DNA from: Patescibacteria group bacterium | Lineage (GTDB): Bacteria > Patescibacteriota > Gracilibacteria > UBA1369 > PNNO01 | DNA: 64,000 nucleotides | Assembly (NCBI GenBank): GCA_042577965.1 | Contig: JBHPDK010000003.1 | Coordinates: 9,266-73,265, forward strand | Reading direction: 5' to 3' | Shown here: one piece after another, positions 5,650 through 29,279 of the stretch | Numbering within the stretch: the first letter of the stretch is position 1 | How the letters are laid out: the number at the start of each line of letters is the position of its first letter | The notes under the pieces: model-generated | What the model was told of the DNA's origin: nothing | The model's database searches: none | The model's input: only the letters and a program-made list of their open reading frames with translations | Program-made: the position numbers and the translations under genes

Positions 5650-5886
5650 CCCGACCAACCTTCATTTTAAGAAAGCCTAAAAATTGGCAAAAGCCATGCG
5701 TATTTTCTTAACTCCAAAAATTATGAACATCAGAATTCAAACAGCACCAAAATTATGGTTCGTACCAATATCAACAAATATGAAAAAAAGAACTCTTCGT
5801 CAAAGAGTAAGGCAATGGAAAAAAAACAATAAAAAAAAGAGATATGTTTTGAATGGGCAAATGCCGATATGGTAAAATAGCCATTG

Positions 5887-6210
5887 ATGGAATACAAATT
5901 TGTAAAAATCGCTGTTTTCATACCTTCCTCTCATGCGGATGATATTCGCAAAGTATTAAATGAAGCTGGGGCAGGCTGCTTGGAACAATATGACAATTGC
6001 TCTTTTTCTACAAAAGGCACAGGCAGATTTAGAGGACTTGAAGGTTCAAATCCTTTTATTGGAGAAGCTGGGAAAATTGAACAAGTTGAAGAAGATAAAA
6101 TTGAGGTAATTTGTCCTTTTGAAAAATACGAGCAGGTTATAGAAGCAGTTAAAAAAGCTCATCCTTATGAAGAACCTGCTATTGATATTTATCCTTTACT
6201 TAATAAGTAA
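5887..6210 (+). CDS. PII-like small protein of the COG3323 / YqfO(Nif3) insert-domain family
   Basis: KIAVFIPSSHADDIRKVLNEAGAG...YDNCSFSTKGTGRFRGLEGSNPFIGEAG...VEEDKIEVICP...AHPYEEPAIDIYPL fits the family pattern. TTGAAT-N18-TAAAAT lies at 5849-5878. Confidence 0.65.
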   Translation: MEYKFVKIAVFIPSSHADDIRKVLNEAGAGCLEQYDNCSFSTKGTGRFRGLEGSNPFIGEAGKIEQVEEDKIEVICPFEKYEQVIEAVKKAHPYEEPAIDIYPLLNK

Positions 6211-17802: not shown

Positions 17803-19164
17803 TTAAGAAATAATCTCCCCTTCCAAAAGCCATTCTCTCGGGTTCAAAACTTTCACTTTAACTATTTGGCCTGTTAAATCTTCAGAGCTCGTGAAAGTTA
17901 CTGTTTTAAAATGCTCGCTTCTGCCTTCACATATCCCTTTGCGACATTTTTCAACTAAAACTTCTACTGTTCGGCCTTTAAATTTTTGATTTTGTTCACG
18001 TGCAATCTGCTTTAAGACTTCGTTTAATCGATGCCAACGATCTGCTTTGTCTTCGCGCGACACATCATCCGGAAGATTAGAAGATGCAAATGTACCAATT
18101 CGGTCAGAATACTTGGAAAGATAGCACATGTCCCAGTGGACATCTTTATAAAGCGAGATTGTATCCTGAAATTGGTCCTGCGTTTCGCTGCAAAATCCAA
18201 CAATTATATCAGTTGTAATAGCAATATCAGGAATGGCTTTGCGAAGCTTTGCAACAAGCTCTTTATACCACTCAACTGTGTAATTTCTATTCATTTTTTT
18301 AAGAATTGCATCATTGCCGGATTGAACAGGGAGGTGAATATACGGCATCAAAGTTTCAAGCTGCGCCATTGCATTAATTAATGCGTCTGATAAATCCTTT
18401 GGATGATTTGATGTAAAGCGGAGACGTTTTAAACCGTGAGACTTGAGTTTGTCGATTTGTGTCAAAAGCTCAACAAACGGATTCTCATAATCCTTAAACA
18501 TATCAGTTTTTTTATCATGATCACTAATGCCATACGAGTTGACATTTTGGCCAAGAAGCGTGATTTCAAGGCATCCACTCTTAACCAGTTTTTCGCATTC
18601 CTTTACTATTTCTGAGATTGGTCTAGACTTTTCACGATGTCGACTATATGGAACAATACAATATGTACAAAAATTATCACAACCTGTGCCTATTGGCACA
18701 AAAGCCTGTGCCTTATTTGAATAAATCGGATTAATATTAAAATAATTTTCAAGACTACCAGTTAATAATTCTGAACTATGGGTTTCTGGCCAAAGATCTT
18801 TAATTAATTTTGGAAGCTTTGGAAGATCTTCAATTCTAAAGACCATATCAATTTCTGTAAGACGTTTTACTAATTTATCTTTTTCCTCAGATTCACGGGT
18901 AGATGTCTTTCTAACCATACATCCTGTAATTCCTGCGATTATATGCGGCCGCTCTTTACGAAACTGTGTGATTTTTTTCATTTGTCCTAAAACCTTATCT
19001 TCTGCTTTTTGTTTAATGCTGCATGTGTTAAATAAAATTAGATCTGCTCCTTCCATTTGATCGGTTTTATTTAGACCAAGATTTTGAAGCACTGCATCAA
19101 TCCGCTCTGAATCAGAGTAATTCATCTGGCAGCCTAAAGTTTGAATGTAATAATTTCGCGGCAT
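17803..19164 (-). CDS. miaB: tRNA methylthiotransferase MiaB (radical SAM)
   Basis: YIQTLGCQMNYSDSE N-terminal cluster, radical-SAM CDNFCTYC, C-terminal TRAM-like segment. Start trimmed to ATG 19164, because the upstream extension covers the structured RNA region. Confidence 0.85.
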   Translation of the reverse strand: MPRNYYIQTLGCQMNYSDSERIDAVLQNLGLNKTDQMEGADLILFNTCSIKQKAEDKVLGQMKKITQFRKERPHIIAGITGCMVRKTSTRESEEKDKLVKRLTEIDMVFRIEDLPKLPKLIKDLWPETHSSELLTGSLENYFNINPIYSNKAQAFVPIGTGCDNFCTYCIVPYSRHREKSRPISEIVKECEKLVKSGCLEITLLGQNVNSYGISDHDKKTDMFKDYENPFVELLTQIDKLKSHGLKRLRFTSNHPKDLSDALINAMAQLETLMPYIHLPVQSGNDAILKKMNRNYTVEWYKELVAKLRKAIPDIAITTDIIVGFCSETQDQFQDTISLYKDVHWDMCYLSKYSDRIGTFASSNLPDDVSREDKADRWHRLNEVLKQIAREQNQKFKGRTVEVLVEKCRKGICEGRSEHFKTVTFTSSEDLTGQIVKVKVLNPREWLLEGEIIS

Positions 19165-19169
19165 TTTAC

Positions 19170-19425
19170 TATTTAGGTTTTGTGGAGAAAAACTTACCAG
19201 AAAGAACGGGTTTAAGCAAGATTTGCATAATCCCGTTATAAAGGGAAAGCGGGCCCCACGGCCCAAAATAAATTTTAAGCTATAGAGCCCGCTAAGGGGC
19301 TGATACACTAGATACCCGAAGGTATCTAAAGCATCAAGGGTATGATTCTAATCACTCCGAAGAGTAAAAAGAATCAAAGTTGTAAATCAGACTCGATAAC
19401 CGAAGCTATCAAATCATCATTACAC
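19170..19425 (-). ncRNA. Candidate structured RNA or 5' leader (class unknown) with three cUUCGg tetraloop hairpins
   Basis: Minus-strand hairpins at 19395-19410, 19344-19375 and 19309-19328 are each capped by C-UUCG-G. Further hairpins at 19286-19301, 19251-19264 and 19205-19237. Preceded by a consensus promoter. Confidence 0.45.
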
Positions 19426-19429
19426 TAAT

Positions 19430-19458
19430 ATTCTAACACAGATCGTGATGAATGTCAA
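19430..19458 (-). promoter_or_regulatory. Promoter TTGACA-N17-TAGAAT (minus strand)
   Basis: Plus-strand tgtcaa at 19453-19458 and attcta at 19430-19435. Located just after the stop of the 1149-aa gene. Confidence 0.6.
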
Positions 19459-19475
19459 ATAGATTTATGCTGATT

Positions 19476-22400
19476 TTATCCTACAAACCATTTTTTAGCT
19501 CTTCCCCATAAACCTTTTTTCTTTGGCTCTTTTGGTACGTCAGCCATTGCAGGTATTGGTGGTGGCCCAACCTTTGGTGGCCTATCATCTGTCATTGCAA
19601 CGTATTCAGGAGGAACAACTTCAGTATCTTCTCCACGTGGCACATCAATTACTGATGGTTTTGCATCAGCAGGAATTGGTGGAGCTTTAACTCCAAGTAT
19701 AGGTTTGATTTCTTTTGGAAGCGGCGCTGAACCATACATTTGAGGAACAGGCGCCATTTCTTTAACTGATCGAATCTGATCTTTAGAAACAGGAATCGAT
19801 TCAGGATCATCTACTTCATATGATACATAAGGTGGCACGTTGCCGCTTGTACCGCTAGGAACTAAAGCATCTACTGGAATCGGTGGAGGTGTTTGCCGTC
19901 TTTTTCTATCCATATCTGCAAGAACTGGCCTTAACTCATCTAAAGGTTGTGAACCGTAATCTGCTGGTTTTAACATTTGTTCTTTAAATATATCTTTACG
20001 TCTAATTTGATGAACTCTTGCATCTTTTGGAATCCTTGGAGGTTTTTTAGCAAGCATAGCTCCAAGTACTGATTTTAATTCAGGAACCGGAGCAGAACCA
20101 AAGTCTGCTGGTTTTTCAGGAGCAATAGGCTCAGCTGATAAAATATCGCTATCATCAATCTGATGAATTATAGTATCATCAGCATCATCAGGGATTGGTG
20201 GTGGAGCAGCTTGAGGTGCCGGCTCAGGTTGAGTTTCAGCAAACATCACATTAGTTGGTGCATCATCAATCGAACCTGTTTTCTTACCCTTAACCAAATC
20301 TGGCATTGGGAATGATTTTGCTTTCTTCTTTATTGCTAGTGCAAATCTCACATTAGTTTTTAAAGCTCTTCCATCTTCAAGAGTAAAAGGCACTTCTTCA
20401 TGAGACAATATATTGTCAGCACTTCTTTCAAGTCCAGTCAGTCCAGGAAATTCCATCAATTCAACTCCTCTTGCAAACAAATCTTTATATTTTTTGTAAC
20501 TTCTCCCTCTCTTTTTTGATTTCATTACTCTTTCATATTTTGAGAGGAGTCCTCTTGCCTGTCTTGCTCTCCCACGATGACTATCTTGATAATCATTCCA
20601 ATCCTTAAGCTGAGCAGCTTCTTTTTCTGTTAAGCCTTCCTTTGTTAATGCTTTTGCAACAAGTTTTTTCTCTTTTAATTTATTATAAATAAGCCATCCT
20701 TTTTGTAATTTCCCTAATTCTTGCTTGTATGCATATTTGGCTTTATATCTTTGAGCTCTTGGGAGTTTATTTATCATATCTTTAAATGCATTTTGTAAAA
20801 ATTCTGAATAAGAAACTCCATCCAATTTAAATTTTTTACCTTGCCACATTTGCTTATAGATTCCGTCTGGCAAATTATCAATAGTTTTAGTGTCGATTTG
20901 TGCAAATTTTGGATTAGACTGAGCACTTTTTACATTAACTGTCTTTTTAACAGGTTTTGGTGCTGGTGCTGGCTTAACTTTTTTAATCTTTTTTATTGGC
21001 TTTGGTCCTGTTAAATCTTTGTCTGCTTTCATAATTTCTTTTGGAGCTTTCATAACAACAACTTTCATAGCCGGCTTCATTGCCGGTTTCATTGCAGGCT
21101 TCATGCTTGTTTTCATTGGTGCCTTCATTCCTGGCTCTTTTTTATCTTTTGGAAGATCCTTAATTATCTTTTTTGAAGAATTATCAGTTGTGGATTTTGC
21201 TGCAATTTTATCTTTTCCCTTTTTTGAATCCACTTTTTTGGATCCTTTTGGAAACAAAGCAATGCCTAATACTACTACTATTGCAACAACGACACCCCAA
21301 ACAACTACTTTTACAGTTGTAGTAGTTTTTGGATGCTCTTTTTCCAATTCTTGTATTTTTTCTTTGATTATTGCTTTTTCTGGTGCTCCTAAATCATCAA
21401 TTGTAGGTGAAGGTGGGATAGTTGTATCTTTAACTCTTACTGTTTCTACATCTGCTGCTGCAGGCACTGGTGCTGGTTCGGTTGCTGGTTTAGGTGCTGG
21501 TTCAGGTGCTTTTAGTGCAACACCCTTTACTGGTGGAATAACATTTGTACGCCCTGGTTTAGGCTCTATATCTGATGCTTTCAAAGCCATACCTTTTATA
21601 GGTGGAATAACATCAGTGGTTTCATCTGCAGCTGGTTTTGGATCAGACTTTTTTGGCTGAGGTTCTACCAGTTTATCAGGTATCGGCGCATCCGGATCAG
21701 TTATTTCGTGTGGTCGTTCAGAATATCCAGTTGGGGAAATAGGTCCGGTTTTTTTTAATTTTGGTGGATCAGGAATATGTTTAGAATCTACCAAGGTCAC
21801 TTCTCCACTGCCTTCATCATCAGCTGGTTTTGGCTTAGGTTTTGGTTTAAGCTTTTCTAGTGTTACAGGTATACTAAAATGATCAACTTGTGTTATCTCC
21901 TCTTCACCGTCAGCAAAATCAGAATCTCCATCTTCCTGAAGAGGCTGTGTTACTTTTGCAGGCTCAGGAATTGCATGACCACCGATACTCCATTTAGATC
22001 TTGGGATTGGCAATGGAGTGTAGTCTTCTTCGAAGTCTGTTGATACATGAGCAGCAGCACTTTCACTTTCAGCACCATCAGCAGCTTCTGGTGATTCAGC
22101 TGCTTCAGCAGGTTCAGGACTTGGTTGGCTTAAAACCGCACCCATTCCTTGTCTTGTTACTTGTCTTACTCTTTTGGGTTTTTTCTTTATAGAAAGTGAA
22201 GTCATAAAATTTGCTTTTTGCTGCGTAAATTCAGTATCCAGAACTTCATTCATAATATTTCTAACCTCAGTTCCAGCAAATTCAATTTTAAGTCTCCTTA
22301 AAAAAAAGCAAAAAATATTCATTGAAGTTCCCTCACTAAGATGATTGAAAATCTCTTGATGCAAACCATCATTATCAGCAACAGATTCAAGTAATATGGT

Positions 22401-22925
22401 TCTTTGCCTAATCTCTTTTTCAGTTAAATCATCAACTGGTGTTTTTAAAATTCTTTCCCATTTTTTAAATAATTCTGATATAAATGGTGATAATTTTTCT
22501 CTTATATGATCTGAGTATAATTCTTCTTCTGCCATCATCATTTTTATTCCTGACCTAATAGCTAATAAAACAAAGTCTAAAAAAATTCTTGCGGTTTCAT
22601 CATCGCCATAAATTGAATCATTAATAAATTGCTCTAAATCAGTCTCAGTTTGCACCCACTCAGGAAACAAATAATCTCTTGCTTTTGAATCTTCAAATAA
22701 TTTTTTTATTACATTTTTAACAAATGGAGGCAGTCCATTTTTTTTAATTTCTGCATGTGAAAGCTTTTTGTCTAATAAAGCTTTTTCATGACCTAATGCA
22801 AGTAAATCAATTGGATCAATTAATTCAACTGTCTGTATTCTCATCTCTTCGTATTCAGAATCTCTATGCTCATAAGAATCCCATTCAATACCTGTATTTG
22901 TGCCTGTAAGTTTTTCTGGAGCCAT
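19476..22925 (-). CDS. Large hypothetical protein (1149 aa): helical N-terminal domain, Pro/Glu-rich linker, single TM, Lys-rich MKPA repeats, C-terminal proline-rich repeat modules
   Basis: Long uninterrupted ORF. TM segment VVVWGVVVAIVVVLGIALF. MKPAMKPAMKPAM run. Three modules [DM][FY]GSxP[LV]xE[LI][KR]x[VI]L...PP(P)IPxDA. No family recognised. Confidence 0.7.
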   Translation of the reverse strand: MAPEKLTGTNTGIEWDSYEHRDSEYEEMRIQTVELIDPIDLLALGHEKALLDKKLSHAEIKKNGLPPFVKNVIKKLFEDSKARDYLFPEWVQTETDLEQFINDSIYGDDETARIFLDFVLLAIRSGIKMMMAEEELYSDHIREKLSPFISELFKKWERILKTPVDDLTEKEIRQRTILLESVADNDGLHQEIFNHLSEGTSMNIFCFFLRRLKIEFAGTEVRNIMNEVLDTEFTQQKANFMTSLSIKKKPKRVRQVTRQGMGAVLSQPSPEPAEAAESPEAADGAESESAAAHVSTDFEEDYTPLPIPRSKWSIGGHAIPEPAKVTQPLQEDGDSDFADGEEEITQVDHFSIPVTLEKLKPKPKPKPADDEGSGEVTLVDSKHIPDPPKLKKTGPISPTGYSERPHEITDPDAPIPDKLVEPQPKKSDPKPAADETTDVIPPIKGMALKASDIEPKPGRTNVIPPVKGVALKAPEPAPKPATEPAPVPAAADVETVRVKDTTIPPSPTIDDLGAPEKAIIKEKIQELEKEHPKTTTTVKVVVWGVVVAIVVVLGIALFPKGSKKVDSKKGKDKIAAKSTTDNSSKKIIKDLPKDKKEPGMKAPMKTSMKPAMKPAMKPAMKVVVMKAPKEIMKADKDLTGPKPIKKIKKVKPAPAPKPVKKTVNVKSAQSNPKFAQIDTKTIDNLPDGIYKQMWQGKKFKLDGVSYSEFLQNAFKDMINKLPRAQRYKAKYAYKQELGKLQKGWLIYNKLKEKKLVAKALTKEGLTEKEAAQLKDWNDYQDSHRGRARQARGLLSKYERVMKSKKRGRSYKKYKDLFARGVELMEFPGLTGLERSADNILSHEEVPFTLEDGRALKTNVRFALAIKKKAKSFPMPDLVKGKKTGSIDDAPTNVMFAETQPEPAPQAAPPPIPDDADDTIIHQIDDSDILSAEPIAPEKPADFGSAPVPELKSVLGAMLAKKPPRIPKDARVHQIRRKDIFKEQMLKPADYGSQPLDELRPVLADMDRKRRQTPPPIPVDALVPSGTSGNVPPYVSYEVDDPESIPVSKDQIRSVKEMAPVPQMYGSAPLPKEIKPILGVKAPPIPADAKPSVIDVPRGEDTEVVPPEYVAMTDDRPPKVGPPPIPAMADVPKEPKKKGLWGRAKKWFVG

Positions 22926-25833: not shown

Positions 25834-25908
25834 TGGTGTCCCCAGCAGGAATCGAACCTGCATCTAGAGCTTAGGAGGCCCTCGTTCTATCCATTGAACT
25901 ATGGGGAC
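25834..25908 (-). tRNA. tRNA-Arg (anticodon CCT)
   Basis: Hand-folded cloverleaf: GTCCCCA acceptor, D arm GTTC/GAAC, anticodon loop CT-CCT-AA, T arm GCAGG-TTCGATT-CCTGC, encoded CCA. Confidence 0.95.
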
Positions 25909-27974: not shown

Positions 27975-28850
27975 ATGGGCCCAGGATCAATCACAACTTT
28001 ACGTAAACAACATATAAAAAAGGCTTTCCCTGCACGTGGCACTGATTCTCATAAAGGCCAAAACGGAAAAGTTTTAATAGTTGGTGGAAGCATTGAATAT
28101 TATGGCGCGCCTTTGCTTAGTGCTCTTGGCGCTTTATATAGCGGTGCTGACTTGGTTTATGTTTATGTGCCGGAATCGAATTTTGATGTTACCCGCAGTT
28201 TGTATCCTGATTTTATTGTGCGGAAATTTCCTGGCCAGTATTTAACTCATCAGGGGGTTGCTGAAATTCTGGAAATGTCTAAAAAATGCGACAGTGTTTT
28301 AATAGGGCCAGGCATGTACGATCGCGAAGTAACTGTTCGCGCTATTTTAGAATTAATCGAAGCACTTGAAGTGCCAACTGTATTGGATTCAACTGCAATT
28401 GAAGTTTTGAAACTGGTAAAAGAAGTGCCATTGAGCCAACCAATTGTGGTGTGCCCTCATAAAAACGAATTCGAAAATTTAACAATGCGTGACATTAAAG
28501 ATAAAAAGGATATTGAAGATTTAATAAAATTTGTTCGTACAATTGCAACTGAAATGCAGATAAATATTTTACTTAAAAGCCCAACTGATGTAGTGGCTTC
28601 GCCAAAAGGAGATGTGGCTTTAAATAAAACCGGTAATGCAGGTTTAACTGTAGGTGGAAGTGGCGATGTTTTAGCAGGTTTGATTGCGTCTTTGATTGCA
28701 CAGGGCGCTGCGCCTTATGAAGCATGTAAGCTTGCAGCTTACTTACTTGGCTTTACAGGTGATTATTTATATAAACAAAAAGATTACTGCTTTAGCGCGA
28801 CTGATTTAGCTTTGGAATTACCTTTTACTATTAGGCAGATAATGCAATAA
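27975..28850 (+). CDS. nnrD: ADP-dependent NAD(P)H-hydrate dehydratase (YjeF C-terminal family)
   Basis: HKGQNGKVLIVGGS...YYGAPLLSALGALYSGADLV and GGSGDVLAG motifs. Confidence 0.85.
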   Translation: MGPGSITTLRKQHIKKAFPARGTDSHKGQNGKVLIVGGSIEYYGAPLLSALGALYSGADLVYVYVPESNFDVTRSLYPDFIVRKFPGQYLTHQGVAEILEMSKKCDSVLIGPGMYDREVTVRAILELIEALEVPTVLDSTAIEVLKLVKEVPLSQPIVVCPHKNEFENLTMRDIKDKKDIEDLIKFVRTIATEMQINILLKSPTDVVASPKGDVALNKTGNAGLTVGGSGDVLAGLIASLIAQGAAPYEACKLAAYLLGFTGDYLYKQKDYCFSATDLALELPFTIRQIMQ

Positions 28851-28987
28851 AAAAGGCCCTGGTTTTTCGTCCAGGGCTCAGAGGGGCTATTGCCCCCATT
28901 CATTCGTCCACCTCATTGTGGGCCTCCGAGTCAAAATGGTTAAAACCAGTTTTGCTTGGTATGGCACCTCCTATGTTGAGTTGACAG
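28846..28987 (-). ncRNA. Mini transcription unit A (candidate sRNA or micro-ORF RNA, ~140 nt)
   Basis: Minus-strand TTGACA (29017-29022)-N17-AATAAT (28994-28999). Contains AGGAGGTGCC. Intrinsic terminator: GCCCTGG/CCAGGGC stem at 28856-28877 followed by U6. Confidence 0.5.
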
Positions 28988-29036
28988 AATGTTATTATTT
29001 CATATTTTGTTAATTTTGTCAAGTATAATATTTCAT

Positions 29037-29223
29037 AAAAAAAGGACCCCACATGATTTAGGTGGGGTCCAAGCCATCGACCGCTTCTTAAACCTGGTCA
29101 TGGTTTACCTCCTCGGGAGGAGTTTGAGGTTGAGGTTTCTAATCAGTTCAGTCGGCACCTCCTGTGCGATGTGGCACGAAAGCCATCACTGTTGCGTCGA
29201 ACCGCGACAGGATGACAAAAACA
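29037..29223 (-). ncRNA. Mini transcription unit B (candidate sRNA or micro-ORF RNA, ~185 nt)
   Basis: Minus-strand TTGACA (29252-29257)-N16-TATAAT (29230-29235). Contains AGGAGGTGCC. Intrinsic terminator: 9-bp GGACCCCAC/GTGGGGTCC stem at 29044-29070 followed by U7. Confidence 0.55.
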
Positions 29224-29250
29224 TAATTCATTATACTTAATTTTAGGATT

Positions 29251-29279
29251 TTGTCAAGTATATTTTTATGTTATATTAT
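29251..29279 (+). promoter_or_regulatory. Promoter TTGTCA-N17-TATTAT for pgeF; its -35 overlaps the minus-strand -35 of unit B
   Basis: TTGTCA 29251-29256; TATTAT 29274-29279. The ATG at 29285 is only 5 nt after the -10, which implies a leaderless or near-leaderless mRNA. Confidence 0.5.

What the first reader, a model, noticed from the sequence alone, without database searches (positions are those of the whole stretch)
19170..19425. Highly structured ~250-nt RNA region with three cUUCGg tetraloop hairpins between a consensus promoter and miaB
- **Promoter:** directly after the stop of the 1149-aa gene lies a near-perfect minus-strand promoter, TTGACA-N17-TAGAAT (19430-19458).
- **Hairpins:** the following ~250 nt before the miaB ATG (19164) contain six hairpins.
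- **UUCG caps:** three of the six are capped by the ultra-stable C(UUCG)G tetraloop, and only when read on the minus strand. They are GAUAGC-UUCG-GUUAUC (19395-19410), ACUC-UUCG-GAGU inside a GAUUC/GAAUC outer stem (19344-19375), and the perfect 8-bp UAGAUACC-UUCG-GGUAUCUA (19309-19328).
- **Possible 3' end or attenuator:** GGGCC-GUGG-GGCCC (19251-19264) is followed by a U-rich run (GCUUUCCCUUUAUAA).
- **Family search:** I could not find any known family signature (RNase P, SRP, tmRNA).
- **ORF track:** the track's extended miaB start (19308) runs through this structure and is probably wrong.
Basis: seen in the sequence. Interest (0 to 1): 0.62.

Follow-up and report, generated by a model that had tools for sequence, protein, structure and literature searches.

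The report
New structured small RNA in Peregrinibacteria
The region is a free-standing gene for a roughly 190-nucleotide, four-hairpin small RNA with its own promoter and terminator; it is conserved and transcribed in one clade of Peregrinibacteria (CPR), matches no known RNA family, and is not a leader of the neighbouring miaB gene.

Summary
A near-consensus minus-strand promoter (TTGACA-17-TAGAAT with a TG extension, 19458-19430) is followed by an RNA that folds far better than chance (z = -8.4). It carries the only three stem-capped cUUCGg loops in the 64-kb window.

The RNA runs from about 19424 to 19237 (188 nt), not 250 nt up to miaB. I found 18 homologues in metagenomes and MAGs of a Peregrinibacteria clade whose MiaB is at least 60% identical to the window's. 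Each folds on its own into the same four hairpins, P1 to P4. Of 43 consensus pairs, 27 show compensatory changes and 95.6% of cells are paired; slid controls give about 40%.

It is a separate gene. Every copy has its own consensus promoter and a GC-rich terminator hairpin. In 4 of the 17 loci other genes lie between it and miaB, and one genome has two tandem copies. miaB has its own conserved promoter. Contigs from five RNA runs cover only the RNA.

No Rfam family matches. Function is unknown. Conserved unpaired CCCUU motifs between the hairpins and a tandem G·A loop in P1 suggest a trans-acting RNA that binds a protein or G-rich RNA. The extended miaB start at 19308 is spurious.

The parts
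19430..19458 (-). sRNA promoter: -35 TTGACA (19458-19453), 17-nt spacer, TG (19438-19437), -10 TAGAAT (19435-19430). The inferred start is at about 19425-19423.
   Evidence: Every homologue has an equivalent TTGACA/TTGCTT-17-TGnTAnnAT promoter directly upstream.
19237..19424 (-). The small RNA gene, about 188 nt: P1, J1/2, P2, J2/3, P3, J3/4, P4, tail.
   Evidence: Covariance-model hit of 162.5 bits. 18 homologues found. 27 of 43 pairs covary. No ORF longer than 3 codons on the sense strand.
19381..19424 (-). P1: outer stem UGUAA/UUACA; symmetric internal loop UGAU (19419-16) / UGAU (19389-86) read as tandem G.A flanked by U.U; 11-bp inner stem; cUUCGg loop (UUCG 19404-19401).
   Evidence: The outer pair switches AU to GC in 9 versus 9 sequences. 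8 of 9 inner pairs covary. GA/GA is kept in 15 of 18 sequences.
19343..19376 (-). P2: UUGAUUC/GAAUCAU base and ACUC-UUCG-GAGU top (UUCG 19361-19358). The apical part varies in length among relatives.
   Evidence: all 6 basal pairs covary..
19300..19337 (-). P3: GAUGCUU/GUGUAUC base and UAGAUACC-UUCG-GGUAUCUA top (UUCG 19320-19317). This is the hairpin best conserved in sequence.
   Evidence: 12 pairs, 7 covary, 99% of cells paired.
19338..19342 (-). J2/3, unpaired UACCC, followed by UU of the P3 stem. One of the repeated C-rich CCCUU motifs.
   Evidence: CCC is present in 14 of 18 sequences.
19294..19299 (-). J3/4, unpaired CCCCUU. The most conserved single-stranded motif.
   Evidence: CCC is present in 18 of 18 sequences.
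19248..19293 (-). P4: long hairpin AGCGGGCUCUAUAGCUUAAAA-UUUA-UUUUGGGCCGUGGGGCCCGCU with a GC-rich base. Inferred to be the intrinsic terminator.
   Evidence: L082 has GAGGGC...GCCCUC, a compensatory change. L198 lacks the local GGGCC arm but keeps the long helix.
19237..19247 (-). 3' tail UUCCCUUUAUA: a U-rich run interrupted by a conserved CCC (19245-19243).
   Evidence: CCC is present in 17 of 18 sequences.
19191..19219 (-). miaB's own promoter: TTGCTT (19219-14), 17-nt spacer, TG, TAAGTT (19196-91). The non-conserved hairpin 19237-19205 overlaps it.
   Evidence: TTCTGGTAAKTTT is conserved 25-35 nt upstream of miaB, including in L001, L082 and L192, where the RNA is not adjacent.
17803..19164 (-). 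miaB CDS, 453 aa. The true start is ATG 19164 (MPRNYYIQTLGCQMN). The GTG 19308 extension is spurious.

Best explanation
Shown: this is an independent gene for a stable, non-coding small RNA of about 190-235 nt, restricted to one Peregrinibacteria clade. It has its own promoter sequence, close to the sigma-70 consensus with an extended -10. It ends in a long GC-based hairpin (P4) followed by a U-rich tail.

The RNA is four hairpins in a row. P1 to P3 are usually capped by UUCG-type loops. The hairpins hold short pyrimidine-rich linkers unpaired: (A/U)CCC, UCCCCUU, ACCCCUUUA and a UUUCCCUUU tail. P1 carries a conserved symmetric UGAU/UGAU loop, read as tandem G.A pairs.

Inferred, not shown: the RNA acts in trans as a scaffold or decoy. 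It displays three or four CCCUU sites and the P1 G.A loop to a protein partner, titrating or assembling it, in the way CsrB/RsmZ displays GGA sites. Candidate partners, from general knowledge only, are KH-domain proteins (KhpA/B, Era), Rho or cold-shock proteins, and an L7Ae-like protein for P1.

My confidence that it is a free-standing, expressed, structured sRNA is about 0.9. The figure given for this explanation applies to the protein-binding mechanism.
For: Structure:
- z = -8.4.
- All 18 homologues fold by minimum free energy on their own into exactly four hairpins.
- On the MAFFT alignment, 23 of 43 pairs covary.
- On the model-fitted alignment, 27 of 43 pairs covary, 95.6% of cells are paired, 0 of 500 shuffles reach this, and slid controls give 35-47%.

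Independence from miaB:
- Each copy has its own promoter.
- A convergent ferritin gene lies between the RNA and miaB in L082 and L192.
- In L142 a 296-aa gene plus ferritin intervene; in L162 an 849-aa gene does.
- L194 has two tandem copies, each with its own promoter.
- miaB has its own promoter.

Expression: contigs of 155-179 nt from five RNA runs lie wholly inside the L002 homologue, with nothing on miaB or the flanks. Three of the five are labelled metatranscriptomic; four studies are represented.

Non-coding: no conserved ORF.

Features that point to the mechanism:
- CCC is present in the linkers in 15, 14, 18 and 17 of 18 sequences, and GA/GA in P1 in 15 of 18.
- About three quarters of the nucleotides sit in stable helices.
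- The promoter sequence is close to consensus, and I saw no conserved operator-like repeat by eye.
- Duplicated copies occur, as with other titrating sRNAs.
Against: - No partner protein is identified, and none is encoded consistently next to the RNA.
- L082 has lost the P2 base and the J2/3 CCCC motif, and the window's J1/2 is ACUU, so not every motif copy is essential.
- The second L194 copy has weaker motifs.
- Loop sequences vary, so the loops are probably not read specifically.
- The expression evidence comes from assembled contigs of a relative (L002). It is not from the window organism, and strand and transcript ends are unresolved.
- No sequencing run holds the window sequence.
Confidence: 0.35

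Rival explanations
1. A base-pairing regulatory sRNA. The unpaired C-rich motifs (CCCCUU) would be seed regions that pair with G-rich sites (AAGGGG-like) in target mRNAs, as the C-rich motifs of RsaE/RoxS or FsrA do.
For: - The unpaired motifs are conserved in sequence while the flanking stems covary.
- The RNA has its own promoter and terminator.
- G-rich 6-mers are rare in this 36% GC genome: 10 AAGGGG sites on both strands outside the RNA gene itself. A short seed could therefore be selective.
Against: - Genes in the window have essentially no Shine-Dalgarno sequences, so the usual C-rich sRNA target class is missing.
- No AAGGGG, AAAGGG or CAAGGG site lies at a translation start in the window.
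- Predicted duplexes with the miaB start region are no better than shuffled controls in 10 of 12 genomes, with no consistent site.
- The RNA is larger and more structured than typical seed-type sRNAs.
Confidence: 0.3
2. A decoy that mimics the 3' end of 16S rRNA. The P2 3' strand plus J2/3 (GCGGAUCA-CCCCUU) resembles the h45 3' strand plus tail (GCGG..GGAUCACCUCCUU). It could bind factors that recognise that tail (Era, 3'-end maturation nucleases, bS21) or SD-like RNAs.
For: - Sequence resemblance seen in L142, L081, L002 and L162 (GCGGAUCA(N0-3)CCCCUUU). The 16S sequence is from memory, not from this genome.
- L086 and the second L194 copy have CACCUCUU in J1/2.
Against: - The motif is CCCC, not CCUCC, in most copies, so pairing with GGAGG is imperfect.
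- GAUCA is base-paired in P2.
- L082 lacks this segment entirely.
- The window copy reads GAAUCAUACCCUU.
- The 16S rRNA of this clade was not available for comparison.
Confidence: 0.08
3. A highly divergent copy of a housekeeping RNA (6S, SRP, RNase P or tmRNA) that Rfam models miss.
For: - The promoter sequence is close to consensus.
- The length, about 190 nt, is similar to 6S RNA.
- No such RNA is found elsewhere in the 64-kb window.
Against: - No Rfam hit even at E <= 10 in the window, nor at E <= 1 in 8 homologue loci.
- ARAGORN finds no tmRNA.
- The fold is four serial hairpins. It is not a rod with a central bubble, and it has no P4-type pseudoknot or GNRA/AGCA SRP motif.
- The outgroup L197 (MiaB 56% identical) has tRNA-Arg directly followed by miaB, with no RNA within 6 kb either side. 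The RNA is therefore clade-specific at this locus.
- One genome has two copies.
Confidence: 0.04
4. A cis-acting leader or attenuator of miaB. Transcription from the strong promoter would read into miaB unless the GC hairpin terminates it.
For: - The RNA is adjacent to and co-oriented with miaB in 13 of 17 loci.
- The 3' strand of P4 can alternatively form a local GGGCC/GGCCC hairpin, and L081 shows a swap to GGCCC/GGGCC. Two competing folds are therefore conceivable.
Against: - Other genes, including a convergent ferritin gene, separate the RNA from miaB in L082, L192, L142 and L162.
- miaB keeps its own promoter motif whether or not the RNA is adjacent.
- RNA-run contigs stop inside the RNA.
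- L198 lacks the local hairpin.
Confidence: 0.03

Closest known systems
CsrB/RsmY/RsmZ-type protein-titrating sRNAs
   Same: - Free-standing sRNA with its own promoter and terminator.
- A string of stable hairpins that display several copies of one short unpaired motif.
- Paralogous copies occur.
   Different: - The motif is pyrimidine-rich (CCCUU) and sits in the linkers; it is not GGA in loops.
- No sequence or model match.
- No CsrA-like partner is known here.
RsaE/RoxS and FsrA (C-rich seed sRNAs of Firmicutes)
   Same: Several conserved unpaired C-rich motifs between hairpins, ending in an intrinsic terminator.
   Different: - About twice as long, with four hairpins.
- No Rfam match.
- The host genes lack the SD sequences that those sRNAs target.
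- No targets were found.
Box C/D (K-turn) RNAs
   Same: P1 has AUGAUGA near the 5' end and CUGA about 30 nt downstream, closed by a terminal stem. They can form the same G.A, A.G, U.U, G-C stack. cmscan gave a weak snoU43 alignment.
   Different: - The loop is symmetric (4 x 4), without the 3-nt bulge that makes a K-turn.
- There are no C'/D' boxes and no guide segment; the space between the boxes is a self-paired hairpin.
- The hit is not significant: E = 5.8, 17.9 bits against a gathering score of 45.
- The host is a bacterium.
6S RNA
   Same: Similar length, a near-consensus promoter sequence and likely abundance; duplicated in some genomes.
   Different: - Not a rod with a central bubble.
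- No Rfam 6S match.
- Restricted to one clade.

Membership tests
Any Rfam 15 family (4227 models) | Covariance-model score at or above the family's gathering threshold | tested here: not met
   Whole window at gathering thresholds: only 3 tRNAs. Region at E <= 10: only hits far below threshold, with E of 5.8 or more. Eight homologue loci at E <= 1: nothing on the RNA.
cis-regulatory leader/attenuator of miaB | Always lies in the 5' UTR of the regulated gene, in one transcription unit | tested here: not met
   Ferritin (convergent) or other genes lie between the RNA and miaB in L082, L192, L142 and L162. miaB has its own promoter.
cis-regulatory leader/attenuator of miaB | Transcript continues into the downstream gene | tested here: not met
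   Contigs from five RNA runs cover L002 5708-5884 only, and none covers miaB. These are contig data for a relative, not the window.
cis-regulatory leader/attenuator of miaB | Mutually exclusive terminator and antiterminator folds | tested here: inconclusive
   A local GGGCC/GGCCC hairpin competes with the long P4. Both show one compensatory change (L081, L082). L198 has only the long helix.
Box C/D K-turn RNA | C box RUGAUGA and D box CUGA forming tandem sheared G.A pairs next to a terminal stem | tested here: met
   The window has AUGAUGA...CUGA closed by UGUAA/UUACA. GA/GA is kept in 15 of 18 sequences. The pairing geometry is inferred.
Box C/D K-turn RNA | Asymmetric loop with a 3-nt bulge, C'/D' boxes, and a guide complementary to rRNA or tRNA | tested here: not met
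   The loop is symmetric, UGAU/UGAU. The sequence between the boxes is a self-paired hairpin. The snoU43 hit has E = 5.8.
6S RNA | Long irregular rod with a central bubble, formed by pairing of the 5' and 3' halves | tested here: not met
   All 18 sequences fold into four serial hairpins. No 6S model hit.
SRP RNA / RNase P RNA / tmRNA | Family-specific conserved cores (domain IV, P4 pseudoknot, tRNA-like ends plus tag) | tested here: not met
   No model hits. ARAGORN finds no tmRNA. The RNA is absent within 6 kb either side of miaB in outgroup L197.
RsaE/RoxS-like C-rich sRNA | Several unpaired C-rich motifs | tested here: met
   CCC is present in J1/2, J2/3, J3/4 and the tail in 15, 14, 18 and 17 of 18 sequences.
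RsaE/RoxS-like C-rich sRNA | Motifs pair with the SD regions of target mRNAs; homology to the RsaE model | tested here: not met
   No SD upstream of 48 window genes. No G-rich sites at starts. No Rfam hit. Whole genomes were not available.
CsrB/Rsm-type sponge | Many GGA motifs that bind CsrA/RsmA | tested here: not met
   The repeated motif is CCCUU, not GGA. The partner cannot be tested with these tools.
Intrinsic (Rho-independent) terminator | GC-rich stem followed by a U-rich run at the 3' end of the unit | tested here: met
   The scan flags 19265-19250 plus CTTTCCCTTT. The GCGGG/CCCGC base and U-rich tail are present in all 18 sequences. Actual termination was not measured.

The most novel reading that the evidence does not exclude
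The RNA is the hub of a so far unknown post-transcriptional control system in CPR bacteria that lack Shine-Dalgarno sequences. It would be a CsrB-like decoy built on a pyrimidine (CCCUU) code, titrating a global RNA-binding protein such as Rho, a KH-domain protein or a factor that binds the 16S 3' tail. A second specific protein would bind the box C/D-like G.A loop in P1.
Probability: 0.2. Interest if true: 0.75.

Novelty: new variant of a known kind. Interest (0 to 1): 0.55.

Why it matters
I know of almost no described regulatory RNAs in the Candidate Phyla Radiation. These bacteria are uncultured, have very small genomes and are thought to have little regulation. My literature searches found no description of this RNA.

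This is a well-supported new RNA family, with 18 members, 27 covarying pairs and transcript evidence. Its architecture is simple and testable. If the CCCUU linkers and the G.A loop turn out to be protein-binding sites, the RNA would give a handle on post-transcriptional control in an SD-less CPR lineage.

On the practical side, the family should be added to annotation pipelines. Gene callers currently place spurious ORFs over it: the 501-aa 'extended miaB' in this window and a 93-aa ORF in L193.

Tried and rejected
- Rfam, at gathering thresholds and at permissive E-values, on the window and on 8 homologue loci: nothing.
- BLAST of the region against phage genomes: no match.
- The conserved pattern in viral contigs: 5 chance matches, none confirmed by the model.
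- The metagenome pattern scan gave 104 stretches; only 5 were true members.
- The model found no members next to miaB in more distant CPR or Firmicutes loci L003-L080, no second copy in the window, and none in outgroup L197.
- Pairing between the sRNA and the miaB start region with RNAduplex: energies are no better than shuffled controls in 10 of 12 genomes, with no consistent site. The method is also poor for long RNAs.
- Search for complementary G-rich sites at gene starts in the window: none.
- The anti-SD seed idea is weakened because window genes have no SD.
- RNA or DNA runs for the window itself: no run holds it (best word share 0.12). L086 could not be submitted. No RNA run was found for L173. 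Raw reads of X25, sampled at 1 in 100, gave no hits.
- The last look-up (P0050) returned no DNA.
- Pairwise MAFFT misaligned the 5' half, so I used multi-sequence and model-based alignments.
- Hammerhead (CUGAUGA-like strings), TIGR/tigRNA array, retron RNA and omega-RNA ideas were considered from memory and dropped. There is no GAAA core, no hypervariable spacers, and no RT, TnpB or IscB gene nearby.
- Literature searches found no description of this RNA.

Full report
**What is in the window**

Read on the minus strand, the stop codon of a 1149-aa proline-rich, low-complexity membrane protein (19476-22925) matches no Pfam family above threshold. It is followed by TTGACA (19458-53), a 17-nt spacer, TG and TAGAAT (19435-30). 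About seven bases later a strongly structured segment begins.

The 261 nt before the miaB ATG fold at -95.5 kcal/mol, against -56.5 ± 4.6 for dinucleotide shuffles (z = -8.4). The opposite strand gives only z = -4.0.

Of the ten CTTCGG/CCGAAG sites in the 64-kb window, only these three close stems, of 11, 6 and 9 pairs. The other seven have 3 pairs or fewer.

**Organism and true miaB start**

- MiaB (radical SAM plus UPF0004 plus TRAM) starts at ATG 19164 (MPRNYYIQTLGCQMN).
- Its closest relatives are MAGs labelled Peregrinibacteria. GC content is about 36%.
- The 501-aa ORF that starts at GTG 19308 runs through the RNA and is not supported by any homologue.

**Homologues**

I fetched the DNA around MiaB relatives. 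I also scanned the metagenome collection with a pattern built from the conserved 3' part (5 true hits among 104 stretches).

Together these gave 18 copies of the RNA in 17 loci: the window, L002, L081, L082, L084, L086, L136, L142, L162, L173, L184, L192, L193, L194 (two copies), L195, L196 and L198. A covariance model built from 16 of them scores all 18 at 67-204 bits.

The model finds nothing in the following:
- the rest of the window;
- miaB loci of more distant CPR bacteria and Firmicutes (L003-L080);
- viral contigs;
- L197, whose MiaB is 56% identical.

In L197, tRNA-Arg(CCU) is followed directly by miaB. The RNA therefore belongs to the clade whose MiaB is at least about 60% identical to the window's. 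It sits in the region between tRNA-Arg(CCU) and miaB.

**Structure**

- Each of the 18 sequences, folded alone, gives exactly four hairpins in the same order.
- RNAalifold on the plain MAFFT alignment predicts 43 pairs, of which 23 have compensatory changes.
- On the model-fitted alignment, 27 of 43 pairs have compensatory changes and 95.6% of cells are paired. None of 500 shuffles reaches the observed values. Sliding the partners by 1-3 columns drops pairing to 35-47%. That alignment leans towards the structure, but the MAFFT result and the independent folds agree with it.

In window coordinates the helices are:

| Helix | Coordinates | Features |
|---|---|---|
| P1 | 19424-19381 | Outer stem; symmetric UGAU/UGAU loop; 11-bp stem; UUCG loop |
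| P2 | 19376-19343 | Variable apical part in relatives |
| P3 | 19337-19300 | Best conserved in sequence |
| P4 | 19293-19248 | Long hairpin with a GCGGG/CCCGC base |
| Tail | 19247-19237 | UUCCCUUUAUA |

CCCCUU (19299-19294) is an unpaired linker. GGGCC-GUGG-GGCCC is part of the 3' strand of P4.

The long P4 is supported by L082 (GAGGGC...GCCCUC) and by L198, which has no local GGGCC arm. L081 has a swap that would also keep the local hairpin. An alternative fold cannot be excluded, but it is not needed.

The loops of P1 to P3 are UUCG in the window and in many relatives. They are CUCGU in the L002 group and CUCG, UCCG or U-rich elsewhere. The hairpins are conserved; the tetraloop identity is not strictly conserved.

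**Conserved unpaired features**

- The P1 internal loop keeps GA opposite GA in 15 of 18 sequences. With the flanking U's, G-C and terminal stem, it reads AUGAUGA...CUGA, the box C/D string. This explains the meaningless snoU43 hit. Unlike a K-turn, the loop is symmetric.
- Every linker is pyrimidine-rich with a CCC core:
  - J1/2, (A/U)CCC(U): 15 of 18 (counting CUC variants);
  - J2/3, UCCCCUU: 14 of 18;
  - J3/4, ACCCCUUUA: 18 of 18;
  - the tail, UUUCCCU: 17 of 18.
- From base composition I estimate that three CCCTT sites in 190 nt is about 27 times the expectation (my arithmetic).

**It is a gene of its own, not a miaB leader**

- Every copy has its own TTGACA/TTGCTT-17-TGnTAnnAT promoter.
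- In L082 and L192 a convergent ferritin gene lies between the RNA and miaB.
- In L142 a 296-aa gene and ferritin intervene. In L162 an 849-aa gene does.
- L194 has two tandem copies, each with its own promoter.
- miaB keeps a conserved TTGCTY-17-TGGTAAKTT promoter motif 25-35 nt upstream of its ATG whether or not the RNA is next to it. In the window this is 19219-19191. The window's last 'hairpin' (19237-19205) overlaps this promoter and is not conserved.
- No ORF is conserved in the RNA. The window copy has none longer than 3 codons on the sense strand.

**Expression**

No public run holds the window sequence. For the L002 homologue, five RNA runs hold contigs of 155-179 nt. The runs are two wastewater 'RNA-Seq cDNA' libraries and three metatranscriptomes (freshwater sediment, sediment and river), from four studies.

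The contigs lie entirely inside the RNA, at L002 5708-5884 of the RNA's 5689-5921. Nothing lies on miaB or the upstream spacer.

Contig data cannot give strand, exact ends or abundance. Even so, coverage confined to the RNA in five of five runs is what a discrete, relatively abundant transcript would give.

**Comparison with known RNAs**

- No Rfam family matches at any threshold.
- The fold excludes 6S RNA (no rod with a bubble). It also excludes SRP RNA, RNase P RNA and tmRNA.
- Clade restriction and duplication argue against a universal housekeeping RNA.
- By architecture, the closest known kinds are protein-titrating sRNAs (CsrB/RsmZ) and C-rich seed sRNAs (RsaE/RoxS, FsrA). It is not a member of either family.
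- Literature searches found no description of it.

**How it most likely works**

The following are shown or directly read from sequence:
- independent transcription signals;
- a conserved four-hairpin fold;
- conserved unpaired CCCUU motifs;
- a conserved G.A loop in P1;
- transcript evidence from a relative.

Inferred: it acts in trans.

I favour a protein-binding scaffold or decoy (about 0.35), for four reasons. Most of the molecule is rigid helix that merely spaces repeated short motifs. Two elements, the P1 loop and the P3 top, are conserved in sequence beyond what pairing requires. The promoter sequence is close to consensus and I saw no conserved operator-like repeat by eye. Gene duplicates occur.

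A base-pairing role for the C-rich motifs is nearly as likely (about 0.3). It lacks its usual targets, because genes here have no Shine-Dalgarno sequences, and I found no complementary sites at gene starts in the window.

A resemblance of the P2 3' strand plus J2/3 (GCGGAUCA-CCCCUU) to the 16S rRNA 3' end is a lead from memory only. The miaB-leader idea is essentially refuted.

**Verdict**

This is a real, conserved, transcribed structured sRNA family, previously undescribed and specific to one Peregrinibacteria clade. Its mechanism is open.

Noticed in passing
window 28850-29257 (minus strand): Two tandem small transcription units lie in an intergenic gap. Each has a near-perfect promoter (TTGACA-16-TATAAT at 29257; TTGACA-17-AATAAT with TG at 29022) and a GC hairpin plus U-run terminator. 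Both carry AGGAGGUGCC near the 5' end, although other genes here lack SD sequences. Unit 1 may encode a 22-aa peptide. Fold z-scores are -3.2 and -3.4, and there is no Rfam match.
   Followed up: partly
window, 48 ORF starts: Almost no gene has a Shine-Dalgarno sequence; upstream regions are A/T-rich. This lineage appears to initiate translation largely without SD pairing.
   Followed up: no
L194 2475-2692 and 2750-2968: Two tandem copies of the sRNA, each with its own promoter. The second is more divergent: J3/4 reads CCCGAUC and the P1 loop has changed.
   Followed up: partly
window 19191-19219; same motif in L001, L081, L082, L192 and others: A conserved TTGCTY-17-TGGTAAKTT element lies 25-35 nt upstream of miaB. 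It is probably miaB's own extended -10 promoter and would give a very short 5' UTR.
   Followed up: partly
window 19476-22925 (minus); homologues in L081, L082, L084, L192, L195, L198, L162: A large (about 850-1220 aa) proline/lysine-rich protein with a central hydrophobic segment (possibly a single transmembrane span) and no Pfam family above threshold usually neighbours the RNA. It is upstream in most loci but downstream in L162.
   Followed up: no
L193 2664-2945 (minus); window 17803-19308: Gene callers place ORFs over the RNA: a 93-aa ORF in L193, and the 501-aa extended miaB in the window. Both are likely spurious.
   Followed up: yes
L082 2406-2882, L192 2384-2806, L142 2381-2938: A ferritin-like gene is inserted convergently right after the sRNA terminator and before miaB, a radical-SAM enzyme that by general knowledge carries Fe-S clusters. 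Its stop codon abuts or overlaps the RNA tail, so P4 may terminate both transcripts.
   Followed up: no
window 25834-25908; L002, L086, L136, L162, L184, L197, L198: tRNA-Arg(CCU) is a conserved upstream landmark of this neighbourhood. In the outgroup L197 it directly precedes miaB, which suggests the sRNA (and the big protein) arose or were inserted between them.
   Followed up: partly
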